Assembly (NCBI RefSeq): GCF_041248615.1
Contig: NZ_CP158426.1
DNA length: 64,000 nt
Direction: 5' to 3' (one strand)
DNA from: Escherichia coli
GTDB taxonomy: Bacteria; Pseudomonadota; Gammaproteobacteria; Enterobacterales; Enterobacteriaceae
This document shows, in pieces, positions 33,001 to 36,000 of the stretch. A program made the position numbers. The stretch's first letter is position 1. The number at the start of each line of letters is the position of its first letter.

Positions 33001-36000
33001 GCGTAGCGCATCAGGCTGCTTTGCGTTTGTCATCAGCCTCTAATTAGTATTCGATCCATGGTTCGCGCTTGCTTTCAGGCAAGGGCTGCTCTAATGCCTG
33101 CATTTGCTCTGCCGAAAGTCCGGTAATCTTTTGTATCCATTCAGGATCTGCCCCATTCTGCAACAACAATCGGAGGAGGCGCTGTTCCCCTTCTTCTTTC
33201 CCTTTCTCCCTCCCTAACAGCCATCCATCATTATGAATTCGCTCTGCAATCGTCATTATTCGCTCCCTTTGTTGTGGCATTCGACGGGTAAGTTCGCTGA
33301 TAAACTCATTAAAACGCGCTTCATCGCCAGTCAGTAAAATGTAATTTAACAGCGCGGTTATCTGGCTGTCATTAGCACACTCTGTAACCAGTAATAGTAC
33401 CAGTTGATCGATAAGCCCCATCAGATCGCGCTGGCGAATATGCTTTTGGATCAACTCCAACAGGGCGACTCTGCGATGCTGCACAATCTCGTCGTCTGGC
33501 ACGACAGTGACATCCACCAGCGGGAACGCTGCGGTATAAAGCTTCCGTGCGGTGGTCGGGTCAGCAAATTCGTCCAGCCAGCACAGGGACCAGGGATAAG
33601 GACTACGGCTACCGTGATAAAACAGCATCGGGATGACCAGCGGTAGCGGCCGGCGTTTATCATGCTCGATATGGCGCTGCATCACCGCCATGGAATAGCG
33701 CATAAGGCGAAACGCCATATGAATATCCTCGCGGCTCTGATGTTCAATCACTACGTAAATATAACCATCACCTTCACGGGTCTTTACCGACCACAGAATA
33801 TCGGAATGTAGCGCCCGCAATTTTTCATCGACAAAGCTGGCGGATTCCAGTTTTAAGCTGTCGAGATCGCACAGTTCACGTAAATCTTTGGGTAAGTGGA
33901 TCTCCATAAAATCCCGCGCGGTGTCAGGGTGCGTGAGAAAGGATTTAAATAATGCGTCATGCGGCGTGCTGGTTGTGAAGTTTGTCATGGCGATCCGTCA
34001 CCTGTAGATAAGATGGCCCGACTGTAGCGACTAACAAAACCATTCTCACCCGGCAATTTCTCGTTCCCCGAGGCGCTTTCCAGGCTATTTTTGTTCCTCT
34101 GCAAACGATACATTTTTCCGGAAACAGGCTCGCGTTTTACATTTCCTGTACCCGGCAGATATTCCCCTTTCCACCGCACTCTTTTGATTAACCGCAAATT
34201 TTAATTACACTTAAGGTGTATATTTTCTATGCAACCCATCAATTCAAGAGGTGTAATGTGCTGATGACTATTTGTAATCGTTATACATTCTGACCTGGAG
34301 TCAGAAGGTATTTCTCTGTCTGTGTGTTCACAGGCAGTGTGGTTGATTACATGAAATTCAGTACATTTGCCCGTCTCGCCTGCCTTTCGTCATTACCGAC
34401 GGTATTGAATTTCGTTTTCCCCGTTGGGGTTCTCCGGACAAGGAGTTGTTTGTTATGCCACGTTTTTTTGCCCGCCATGCCGCCACGCTGTTTTTCCCGA
34501 TGGCGTTGATTTTGTATGATTTTGCCGCGTACCTGTCGACGGATCTGATCCAGCCAGGGATCATTAATGTGGTCCGTGATTTTAATGCCGATGTCAGTCT
34601 GGCCCCTGCTGCCGTCAGTCTCTATCTTGCTGGCGGTATGGCGTTACAGTGGCTGCTGGGGCCGCTTTCCGACAGAATTGGCCGCAGGCCGGTGCTGATT
34701 ACCGGGGCGTTAATTTTTACCCTTGCCTGCGCCGCGACAATGTTCACCACGTCAATGACACAATTTCTTATCGCGCGTGCAATTCAGGGCACCAGTATCT
34801 GTTTTATTGCCACCGTTGGTTATGTCACGGTGCAGGAGGCGTTCGGACAGACAAAAGGGATCAAGTTGATGGCGATTATTACCTCCATCGTACTGATTGC
34901 GCCGATTATCGGCCCGCTTTCCGGCGCAGCTCTGATGCACTTTATGCACTGGAAAGTCCTTTTTGCCATCATTGCGGTTATGGGTTTTATCTCATTTGTT
35001 GGCTTACTGTTGGCGATGCCAGAGACGGTGAAGCGCGGCGCGGTTCCGTTTAGCGCCAAAAGCGTCTTGCGCGATTTTCGTAATGTCTTTTGCAATCGGC
35101 TGTTCCTCTTTGGCGCAGCAACCATCTCTTTAAGCTATATCCCGATGATGAGCTGGGTGGCTGTCTCGCCGGTGATCCTTATCGATGCAGGCGGCTTAAC
35201 AACTTCGCAGTTCGCCTGGACACAGGTTCCGGTGTTCGGCGCGGTGATTGTCGCGAATGCCATCGTGGCGCGTTTCGTTAAAGATCCGACCGAACCGCGG
35301 TTTATCTGGCGTGCCGTCCCCATTCAACTGGTCGGCCTCGCGCTGTTGATTATCGGCAATCTGCTGTCGCCGCACGTCTGGCTGTGGTCGGTGCTGGGCA
35401 CCAGTCTGTATGCTTTCGGGATTGGTTTGATTTTCCCGACCTTATTCCGCTTTACGCTGTTTTCCAATAACTTACCGAAAGGGACCGTCTCCGCATCGCT
35501 AAATATGGTGATCCTGATGGTGATGTCGGTCTCGGTCGAAATCGGCCGCTGGCTGTGGTTTAACGGCGGTCGCTTGCCGTTTCATCTATTAGCCGTTGTG
35601 GCGGGCGTTATCGTCGTTTTCACCCTGGCGGGATTGCTCAATCGCGTGCGCCAACATCAGGCTGCCGAGCTGGCGGAGGAGCGGTGATTTTTGCGCGATC
35701 CTACCGTCAGGCTCTATTCTTAACGTTATGAATAAACTCATTGAACTCAGACGCGCCAAAATGTTGGCGCTCTCTTTACTGCTTATCGCCGCTGCTACCT
35801 TTGTCGTTACGCTGTTTTTGCCACCCAATTTTTGGGTGAGCGGCGTGAAGGCGATTGCTGAAGCGGCGATGGTCGGCGCACTGGCGGACTGGTTTGCGGT
35901 GGTGGCGCTGTTTCGCCGCGTGCCGATTCCGATCATTTCTCGTCATACGGCGATTATTCCGCGTAATAAAGACCGGATTGGCGAAAATCTCGGCCAGTTC

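What the first reader, a model, noticed from the sequence alone, without database searches (positions are those of the whole stretch)
33044..33988. rpnD appears intact here (split pseudogene yjiP/yjiQ in K-12 as I recall)
The 314-aa uninterrupted reading frame has the YhgA-like nuclease N-terminus, implying a functional Rpn recombination-promoting nuclease. Rpn proteins stimulate RecA-independent recombination, so an active copy adjacent to a hypervariable defence locus might contribute to its plasticity.
Basis: partly seen in the sequence, partly recalled or inferred. Interest (0 to 1): 0.4.

Follow-up and report, generated by a model that had tools for sequence, protein, structure and literature searches.

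The report
Intact rpnD nuclease gene with internal antitoxin
This is an ordinary, intact copy of the E. coli gene rpnD, a toxic DNA-cutting enzyme that carries its own small antidote protein inside the same reading frame; that it is intact in most strains and broken in the laboratory strain K-12 was published in 2015.

Summary
Window 33044..33988 (minus strand) is an uninterrupted 314-codon ATG-started ORF lying between yjiR and mdtM, which is the rpnD locus. It matches Pfam PF04754 (E 1e-86) and TIGR01784. It keeps every residue shown to matter in RpnA, at the same numbering: D11, D63, E82, Q84, R94 and PDDE164-167. K-12 rpnD is a pseudogene, but through a single CAG>TAG change at codon 104, not a frameshift.

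None of this is new. Kingston et al. 2015 state that most E. coli strains have a complete YjiP and that K-12 has a point nonsense mutation. They had already proposed and tested a role in replacement of the neighbouring defence island. Overexpression raised RecA-independent recombination about 5-fold, but not specifically at the island.

The window gene has the expected anatomy:
- an internal ATG (M245) aligned with the proven RpnA-S start, preceded by AAGGGAG;
- a 70-aa RpnD-S ORF;
- the hypervariable four-residue repeat block, with 3 units here and 1, 2 or 4 in other strains.

Verdict: already known, low interest.

The parts
33044..33988 (-). rpnD full-length CDS (RpnD-L, 314 aa plus stop), the toxin/nuclease form
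   Evidence: ORF. Pfam PF04754 E 1.3e-86. TIGR01784 above cutoff. 100% identical to the annotated CDS WP_001577654.1 in NZ_OW967178.1.
33359..33967 (-). Transposase_31 / YhgA-like domain (aa 8-210), containing the PD-(D/E)XK-type nuclease core
   Evidence: Pfam match covers protein 8-210 and profile 1-202 of 203. This part is 97% identical on average between E. coli alleles.
33737..33958 (-). Span holding the active-site codons D11 (33956-33958), D63 (33800-33802), E82 (33743-33745) and Q84 (33737-33739). R94 is at 33707-33709 and D165 of the PDDE motif at 33494-33496.
   Evidence: These are invariant columns in the alignment with K-12 RpnA, B, C and E. Codons were read from the window. Mutational evidence in RpnA comes from PMC5350276.
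33677..33679 (-). Codon 104, CAG (Gln) here; TAG (amber) in K-12, which splits that gene into yjiP and yjiQ
   Evidence: The exact K-12 61-mer containing TAG occurs in 338 of 5426 complete genomes; the eight listed are K-12-type laboratory strains or lack a lineage name.
33343..33372 (-). Candidate internal sigma-70 promoter for the short rpnD-S transcript (ATGACA, 18 nt spacer, TG-TAAATT). Weak evidence.
   Evidence: Consensus scan found 3 sites in the region against 2.9 expected by chance, so this is only a candidate. PMC10400941 reports an internal transcription start in all rpn genes.
33263..33269 (-). Shine-Dalgarno-like AAGGGAG, 6 nt upstream of the internal ATG
   Evidence: Read from the sequence. 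It occupies codons 240-242, the counterpart of the RpnA K240/E241 ribosome-binding site whose mutation abolishes RpnA-S.
33044..33256 (-). Nested in-frame ORF rpnD-S (70 aa, [15 protein letters not shown]...), starting at the internal initiation codon M245 (ATG 33254-33256). Predicted antitoxin.
   Evidence: M245 is an invariant column aligned with RpnA M244. PDB 7TH0 (RpnA-S) starts at that Met. BLASTP of RpnD-S against RpnA-S gives 32% identity, E 8e-8.
33188..33223 (-). Hypervariable four-residue (12-nt) repeat block, three units here: [12 protein letters not shown]
   Evidence: Between alleles the only indels lie here and are multiples of 12 nt. Counts are 1 unit (K-12, 1002W03), 2 (O157:H7), 3 (window, 2013C-3181, STEC2018-553) and 4 (Nissle 1917, AMSCJX02). 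The block begins 11 residues after M245, within the 8-20 range given in PMC10400941. TRF finds no DNA tandem repeat in this allele.
33047..33088 (-). RpnD-specific C-terminal tail ([14 protein letters not shown]), absent from RpnA, B, C and E and divergent between rpnD alleles
   Evidence: The megablast alignment to K-12-type alleles stops at query base 914.

Best explanation
The ORF is an intact chromosomal rpnD allele (314 aa, three-repeat class). By homology it is a gene within a gene.

The full-length product RpnD-L is a Mg-dependent DNA endonuclease of low sequence specificity, with a PD-(D/E)XK-type core (D63, E82, Q84). It is toxic and induces the SOS response when it is not held in check.

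A second product, RpnD-S (70 aa), is translated in the same frame from the internal ATG at M245, behind its own Shine-Dalgarno sequence and probably from an internal promoter. RpnD-S is expected to bind the identical C-terminal domain of RpnD-L and block its nuclease activity. Pairing specificity would be set by the number of four-residue repeats in the first helix.

The pair would then act as a toxin-antitoxin phage-defence module at the edge of the Immigration Control Region. The stimulation of RecA-independent recombination seen on overexpression is most likely a by-product of DNA breakage.

Shown here: the intact ORF, family membership, conserved catalytic residues, the internal start and SD, the repeat polymorphism, and the synteny.
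Shown in the literature for K-12 rpnD: toxicity, SOS induction and recombination stimulation by the repaired gene, and detection of an RpnS product.
Inferred by homology only: nuclease activity of this allele, antitoxin action of RpnD-S, and any anti-phage effect.
For: - ORF and family.
- D11, D63, E82, Q84, R94 and the PDDE motif are invariant against RpnA, B, C and E.
- In RpnA, the D11A, D63A, E82A and Q84K mutants lose all phenotypes and D165A is hyperactive (PMC5350276).
- The repaired K-12 gene (yjiPc) is toxic, induces SOS and raises RecA-independent recombination 4.7-fold.
- The internal start M245 aligns with RpnA M244, the first residue of the crystallised RpnA-S (PDB 7TH0). AAGGGAG lies 6 nt upstream.
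- All five K-12 rpn genes show an internal initiation signal and an SPA-tagged RpnS product. RpnS blocks RpnL toxicity, SOS induction and nuclease activity. Repeat number sets the specificity of pairing. RpnP2 protects against phages (PMC10400941).
- rpnD alleles differ by 12-nt multiples exactly at the predicted place.
- The RpnS part is far more variable than the nuclease domain: mean pairwise amino-acid identity 77% against 97%.
- rpnD diverges more from K-12 (94.0% nt) than its neighbours yjiR (98.2%) and mdtM (98.0%).
- The 2025 review lists rpn as a toxin-antitoxin system of the ICR.
Against: - There are no expression or activity data for this allele.
- Anti-phage activity has been shown only for a plasmid-borne paralogue (RpnP2), not for any RpnD.
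- RpnD-L was not among the full-length proteins detected in K-12, where the amber codon would prevent it in any case.
- PADLOC-DB has no model that matches, so there is no independent bioinformatic support for a defence role.
- The AlphaFold model of RpnD-S is of low confidence (pLDDT 67), and Foldseek found no significant match in the PDB, RpnA-S included.
- The internal promoter is only a weak consensus match, no better than chance.
- The gene has been lost or broken repeatedly in other lineages, so it is dispensable.
Confidence: 0.75

Rival explanations
1. One reading: RpnD's main role is as a recombination-promoting nuclease whose breaks drive replacement and diversification of the neighbouring defence island (ICR).
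For: [quoted passage not shown] Behind yjiR and yjiS lie GmrSD, symE and a type IB hsdRMS system, at about 20.6-31.0 kb. The repaired, overexpressed K-12 gene raises RecA-independent recombination about 5-fold. IS1 insertions and deletions end in or next to rpnD in several strains. Zhong et al. themselves speculate that RpnL may start recombination events.
Against: [quoted passage not shown] The effect needs artificial overexpression, and the co-expressed RpnS blocks the nuclease. ICR content varies just as much in K-12-, B- and O157-type lineages where RpnD-L is broken. [quoted passage not shown]
Confidence: 0.15
2. The ORF is intact but functionally silent: a decaying or cryptic gene that merely has not yet acquired a lesion in this lineage.
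For: At least six independent kinds of lesion occur in other lineages: an amber codon, a 25-nt duplication, an IS1 insertion, a 7-nt deletion, an ERIC-like insertion and an IS1-mediated deletion. In addition, 1184 of 5426 genomes give no megablast match at all. The full-length proteins are scarce under laboratory conditions.
Against: Catalytic residues and the nuclease domain are strongly conserved, at 97% amino-acid identity, while the RpnS part diversifies by in-frame 12-nt steps. That pattern indicates selection, not drift. About three quarters of carriers keep an in-frame full-length gene.
Confidence: 0.08
3. It is a transposase of an insertion sequence, as the legacy names 'Transposase_31' and 'ISNCY family transposase' suggest.
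For: The Pfam name, and a sub-threshold hit to NF007418 'ISNCY family transposase' (393.9 bits against a cutoff of 583).
Against: No terminal inverted repeats or target duplications flank the gene. The only inverted repeat in 32780-34460 is a 19-nt palindrome pair in the rpnD-yjiR spacer. The gene occurs at one place per genome (median 1, maximum 2), with 4247 of 4249 places on chromosomes, and it lay next to mdtM or yjiN and yjiR in every locus inspected. PMC10400941 finds no evidence of autonomous transposition.
Confidence: 0.02

Closest known systems
E. coli K-12 RpnD (YjiP/YjiQ, b4584), studied as the repaired construct yjiPc (Kingston et al. 2015, 2017)
   Same: An ortholog at the same locus between mdtM and yjiR. 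The nuclease domain is 98% identical at the amino-acid level (239/244). It has the same catalytic residues, the same internal ATG and a very similar SD region.
   Different: K-12 has TAG at codon 104 and so is a pseudogene for the long form. K-12 has 1 repeat unit (YIKG) against 3 here ([12 protein letters not shown]), giving 306 against 314 codons. The last 14 residues differ. The RpnS part is only 71% identical.
E. coli RpnA (YhgA) and its intragenic antitoxin RpnA-S (PDB 7TH0; Zhong et al. 2023)
   Same: 57% identity over the full length, with all mutationally defined residues conserved at the same positions. The internal start is aligned (M244/M245). RpnD-S and RpnA-S are homologous (32% identity, E 8e-8).
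   Different: It is a different paralogue and locus. RpnD-S is longer (70 aa against 49 aa), through extra repeat units and a 13-residue C-terminal tail. Biochemistry and structure exist for RpnA only.
Plasmid-encoded RpnP2-LS (Zhong et al. 2023)
   Same: The same family and the same gene-within-gene architecture.
   Different: RpnP2 is the only Rpn with demonstrated anti-phage activity, and it is plasmid-borne. I did not compare its sequence here.
Other toxin-antitoxin and restriction genes of the Immigration Control Region (symE/symR, brnAT, hsdRMS, mcrBC, mrr, gmrSD)
   Same: They share the chromosomal neighbourhood and show presence/absence and allelic hypervariability. A review groups rpn with them.
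   Different: The proteins are unrelated. In rpnD the antitoxin is nested in the toxin's own reading frame instead of being a separate gene or an antisense RNA.

Membership tests
Rpn / YhgA-like family (Pfam PF04754, TIGR01784) | Significant match to the family profiles above the curated cutoffs | tested here: met
   PF04754 scores 289.8 bits against cutoff 21, with profile positions 1-202 of 203 covered. TIGR01784 scores 174 bits against cutoff 52.1.
Rpn / YhgA-like family (Pfam PF04754, TIGR01784) | PD-(D/E)XK-type core residues as defined by mutagenesis in RpnA (D11, D63, E82, Q84, R94), plus the PDDE motif | tested here: met
   All are invariant columns in alignment A2, at identical numbering, and the codons were verified in the window. 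The mutational basis is in PMC5350276.
Rpn / YhgA-like family (Pfam PF04754, TIGR01784) | Mg-dependent DNA endonuclease activity, and toxicity or SOS induction on expression | not testable with these tools
   Shown for RpnA in vitro and for repaired K-12 RpnD in vivo, but not for this allele.
rpnD ortholog group (as opposed to rpnA, B, C or E) | Position between mdtM and yjiR at the proximal side of the ICR, and closest similarity to K-12 rpnD | tested here: met
   Synteny is shown. Nucleotide identity to K-12 rpnD is 94%, against 48-63% amino-acid identity to RpnA, B, C and E. The RpnA equivalog model NF007361 is not met (379 bits against cutoff 583), as expected for a different paralogue.
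RpnL-RpnS intragenic toxin-antitoxin (Zhong et al. 2023) | In-frame internal start codon with a ribosome-binding site, aligned with the proven RpnA-S start | tested here: met
   M245 (ATG 33254-33256) aligns with RpnA M244, which is residue 1 of PDB 7TH0. AAGGGAG lies 6 nt upstream.
RpnL-RpnS intragenic toxin-antitoxin (Zhong et al. 2023) | Variation between strains in the number of four-residue repeats, beginning 8-20 residues after the RpnS initiator Met | tested here: met
   Alleles carry 1, 2, 3 or 4 units, and the block starts 11 residues after M245. The units are degenerate, and TRF detects no DNA repeat within this allele.
RpnL-RpnS intragenic toxin-antitoxin (Zhong et al. 2023) | RpnS folds as a three-helix bundle with a long first helix | tested here: inconclusive
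   The AF2 model is all-helical (H3-15, H20-33, H38-45, H49-55) but has pLDDT 67. Foldseek against the PDB gave no hit with E <= 0.001.
RpnL-RpnS intragenic toxin-antitoxin (Zhong et al. 2023) | RpnS is actually translated and neutralises RpnL | not testable with these tools
   The paper reports an RpnS product for all five K-12 rpn genes. Neutralisation was shown for the A, B, C and P2 pairs only.
Anti-phage defence system | Reduces infection by some phage | not testable with these tools
   Shown only for RpnP2. PADLOC-DB v2 has no matching model.
Insertion-sequence transposase (ISNCY) | Terminal inverted repeats or target duplications, multiple or mobile copies, and the equivalog score cutoff | tested here: not met
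   No flanking inverted or direct repeats were found. There is a median of 1 place per genome (maximum 2), with 4247 of 4249 places chromosomal. NF007418 scores 393.9 bits, below its cutoff of 583.

The most novel reading that the evidence does not exclude
The most novel reading not excluded is this. The repeat-number classes of rpnD (1, 2, 3 or 4 units; this window has the 3-unit class) are mutually incompatible toxin-antitoxin specificity groups. Lineages repeatedly disable only the toxin half while keeping a translatable RpnD-S. Two examples: the K-12 amber codon at 104, and the O157:H7 25-nt duplication, which frameshifts RpnD-L yet regenerates an ATG and a complete 66-aa RpnD-S ORF. On this reading, orphan antitoxins are selected, for example as immunity against incoming rpnD alleles during recombination at the defence island. 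The window's own gene would simply be an active member of one class.
Probability: 0.12. Interest if true: 0.4.

Novelty: already known. Interest (0 to 1): 0.12.

Why it matters
It matters little beyond correct annotation. The gene should be labelled rpnD, with its nested rpnD-S, rather than 'putative transposase'. It should be counted as part of this strain's defence repertoire at the Immigration Control Region.

The comparative by-products are useful for anyone studying how the RpnL/RpnS pairing evolves, but they extend published observations rather than overturn them. These by-products are the four repeat-number classes and the several independent ways in which lineages have broken the long form, some of which spare the short ORF.

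Tried and rejected
- **Solved structures, full-length query:** a search with full-length RpnD found nothing at E <= 0.01. Only the control search with the RpnA C-terminus recovered 7TH0.
- **RpnD-S structure:** AlphaFold2 from a 10-sequence alignment gave a low-confidence model (pLDDT 66.9). Foldseek against the PDB returned only insignificant hits (best E 0.96), so the three-helix-bundle test is inconclusive.
- **PADLOC:** the scan gave no hit.
- **Tandem repeats:** Tandem Repeats Finder found no repeat in the gene. The 'repeat' is visible only as 12-nt indels between alleles and as an xxxG amino-acid pattern.
- **Promoter scan:** it gave no more sites than chance (3 against 2.9 expected), so the internal promoter is only a candidate.
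- **Supplementary files:** those of Zhong et al. are not held, so I could not read their rpnD-specific panels.
- **Transposase reading:** rejected, because there are no flanking repeats and the gene sits at a single chromosomal place beside mdtM or yjiN and yjiR in every locus inspected.
- **Frameshift in K-12:** rejected, because the lesion is a point nonsense mutation.
- **Searches not run:** I did not run the large protein-database searches or a full-length structure prediction, because family membership was already unambiguous.
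Full report
**1. Observation.**
The ORF listing returns a single ORF at exactly 33044..33988 on the minus strand: 314 codons with an ATG start. It is flanked by yjiR (31389..32801, +) and mdtM (about 34455..35687, +). The protein matches Pfam PF04754 (Transposase_31, YhgA-like) over residues 8-210 with E 1.3e-86. It passes the curated cutoff of NCBIfam TIGR01784, 'Rpn family recombination-promoting nuclease/putative transposase'. The two equivalog models, RpnA and 'ISNCY transposase', are both below cutoff.

**2. Identity of the window and the locus.**
The gene is 100% identical to an annotated CDS (WP_001577654.1) in E. coli isolate 362, NZ_OW967178.1. Window 13044-53963 is 99.93% identical to that chromosome, differing by 4 SNPs and two indels. 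Transferring that annotation gives the order yjiN - mdtM - rpnD - yjiR - yjiS. Next comes the Immigration Control Region (ICR): a DUF262 fragment, a GmrSD-type enzyme, symE, hsdS, hsdM, an EcoAI-family hsdR and a DUF262 protein. The ICR ends at yjiA. In window coordinates it spans roughly 20.6-31.0 kb. 'Adjacent to a hypervariable defence locus' is therefore correct.

**3. K-12 comparison.**
MG1655 annotates rpnD (b4584) as a pseudogene, and PGAP flags 'internal stop' in another K-12 genome. Translation and DNA alignment show a single in-frame CAG>TAG change at codon 104, where the window has CAG at 33677..33679. There is no frameshift.

Kingston et al. [quoted passage not shown] They built a repaired gene, yjiPc.

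**4. Catalytic residues.**
I fetched K-12 rpnA, rpnB, rpnC and rpnE and aligned them with the window protein. Identity is 57, 63, 48 and 56% respectively. D11, D63, E82, Q84, R94 and the P164-D-D-E167 motif are invariant columns at the same numbering as in RpnA.

In RpnA, the D11A, D63A, E82A and Q84K mutants lose all phenotypes. Q84A and R94A lose recombination stimulation. D165A is hyperactive (PMC5350276).

**5.
Zhong et al. 2023 (PMC10400941) made several findings:
- All five K-12 rpn genes have an internal translation initiation site and a detectable small C-terminal product, RpnS.
- RpnS blocks the toxicity, SOS induction and nuclease activity of the long form, RpnL.
- A block of four-residue repeats, 8-20 residues after the RpnS start, varies in number between strains and sets the specificity of RpnL-RpnS pairing.
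- A plasmid paralogue, RpnP2, protects against phages.

The RpnA-S start was proven by the K240R/E241D/M244L mutant. The crystallised RpnA-S (PDB 7TH0) begins MTIAERLRQEG. In alignment A2 that Met is an invariant column, equal to M245 of the window protein. In the window this is ATG 33254..33256, preceded at 6 nt by AAGGGAG (33263..33269). The nested ORF 33044..33256 encodes 70 aa ([28 protein letters not shown]...). Pairwise BLASTP against RpnA-S gives 32% identity, E 8e-8, with the gap falling exactly in the repeat block.

**6. Allelic variation.**
I fetched twelve other rpnD loci and compared them. The only in-frame length differences are multiples of 12 nt at window 33188..33223:

| Repeat units | Sequence | Protein length | Strains |
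|---|---|---|---|
| 1 | YIKG | 306 aa | K-12, 1002W03, Z0117EC0051 |
| 2 | WLLG-REEG | not applicable (long form frameshifted) | O157:H7 |
| 3 | WLLG-R/MEKG-KEEG | 314 aa | window, 2013C-3181, STEC2018-553 |
| 4 | WLLG-RERG-RKEG-KE/VEG | 318 aa | Nissle 1917, AMSCJX02, 38I23CPO002 |

The units are degenerate, and TRF detects no tandem repeat in this allele.

Mean pairwise amino-acid identity among alleles is 96.9% for residues 1-244 but 76.7% for the RpnS part. Between the window and K-12, rpnD is 94.0% identical at the nucleotide level (N-domain 95.4%, RpnS part 88.9%, plus a 24-nt indel). The flanking yjiR and mdtM are 98.2% and 98.0% identical. This reproduces, for rpnD, the 'small, highly variable C-terminal domain' described by Zhong et al.

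**7. How common is an intact gene?**
Megablast finds rpnD in 4242 of 5426 complete E. coli genomes. Almost all have one place, and 4247 of 4249 places are chromosomal. Three lineage-specific lesions can be counted by exact junction 61-mers:
- the K-12 amber codon, in 338 genomes;
- an O157:H7 25-nt tandem duplication, in 279 genomes;
- an IS1 insertion shared by B, BL21, C and a few isolates, in 78 genomes.

Sporadic lesions seen in an evenly spaced sample of 40 hits were a 7-nt deletion (WS1933D), a ~125-nt ERIC-like insertion (MB50) and an IS1-mediated deletion running into hsdS (AR_0369). In that sample 8 of 40 are demonstrably broken. All 8 hits of in-frame length that I inspected are annotated as intact.

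So roughly three quarters of carriers have an intact gene. Laboratory and outbreak lineages are over-represented among the broken copies. 'Intact' is the norm.

**8. The plasticity hypothesis.**
Kingston et al. proposed the same idea for the same reasons: a conserved framework gene at the ICR border with a PD-(D/E)XK domain. Induced yjiPc increased RecA-independent recombination about 5-fold and killed recA cells. [quoted passage not shown] The 2025 EcoSal Plus review instead lists rpn with brnAT and symE/symR as toxin-antitoxin systems housed in the ICR.

**9. Rejected alternatives and dead ends.**
- Transposase: there are no terminal repeats or duplications around the gene, the gene is single-copy at one chromosomal locus, and the equivalog model is below cutoff.
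- Structure: the AF2 model of RpnD-S is helical but of low confidence, with no significant PDB match.
- PADLOC gave no hit.
- The promoter scan was no better than chance.

**10. Verdict.**
The feature is an ordinary intact rpnD allele with its nested antitoxin ORF. It is already annotated in RefSeq, and its properties are already described in the literature. Interest is low. The only mildly new material is comparative: the repeat classes, and the independent toxin-half lesions that spare the RpnD-S ORF.

Noticed in passing
L009:401-1358 (E. coli O157:H7 strain 2149 rpnD); corresponds to window ~33210-33259: A 25-nt tandem duplication (ATAATGACGATTGCAGAGCGAATTC) spans the internal start codon. 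It frameshifts the long form, but the second copy regenerates an ATG followed by a complete 66-aa RpnD-S ORF with two repeat units. The exact junction occurs in 279 complete genomes. Whether the second ATG is used is unknown, because its upstream Shine-Dalgarno context is weaker.
   Followed up: partly
L008:722-1560 (E. coli B) and L019:3001-3819 (AR_0369): IS1 is inserted exactly at the start of the four-residue repeat block (after HNDG, codon 255) in B, BL21, C and relatives, 78 genomes in all. A separate IS1-mediated deletion in AR_0369 removes everything from rpnD codon 33 into hsdS.
   Followed up: partly
L011:401-1470 (strain MB50 rpnD): The gene is interrupted at about codon 152 by a ~125-nt insertion containing GTGAATCCCCAGGAGCTTACA...GTGACTGGGGTGAA. 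From memory this looks like an ERIC/IRU repeat element; I did not test that. Finding such an element inside a coding sequence is unusual.
   Followed up: no
L020:5536-8562 and L013 (strains 1002W03, Z0117EC0051): In these strains mdtM is absent and yjiR is reduced to a 309-nt fragment that overlaps the 3' end of rpnD by 9 nt. Deletions thus abut an intact rpnD on both sides.
   Followed up: partly
window 49566..50150 (-) and window 41482: Compared with the near-identical isolate 362, the window lacks one C at about 50012. This leaves kptA as an intact 194-codon ORF, whereas the gene is annotated 'frameshifted' in that genome. The window also lacks 24 nt at 41482, inside the pentapeptide-repeat protein gene. 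Either difference could be real or an assembly error in one of the two sequences.
   Followed up: partly
window 32939-33001: A 19-nt inverted-repeat pair (89% complementary, 25 nt apart) lies in the rpnD-yjiR spacer, next to sequence that looks REP-like (tgcctgatgcgctacgcttatcaggtctac on the minus strand). It is probably an ordinary REP/BIME element and was not examined further.
   Followed up: no
E. coli genome collection: 1184 of 5426 complete E. coli genomes give no megablast match to rpnD at all. I did not determine whether the locus is deleted or replaced in these genomes, or which phylogroups they belong to.
   Followed up: no
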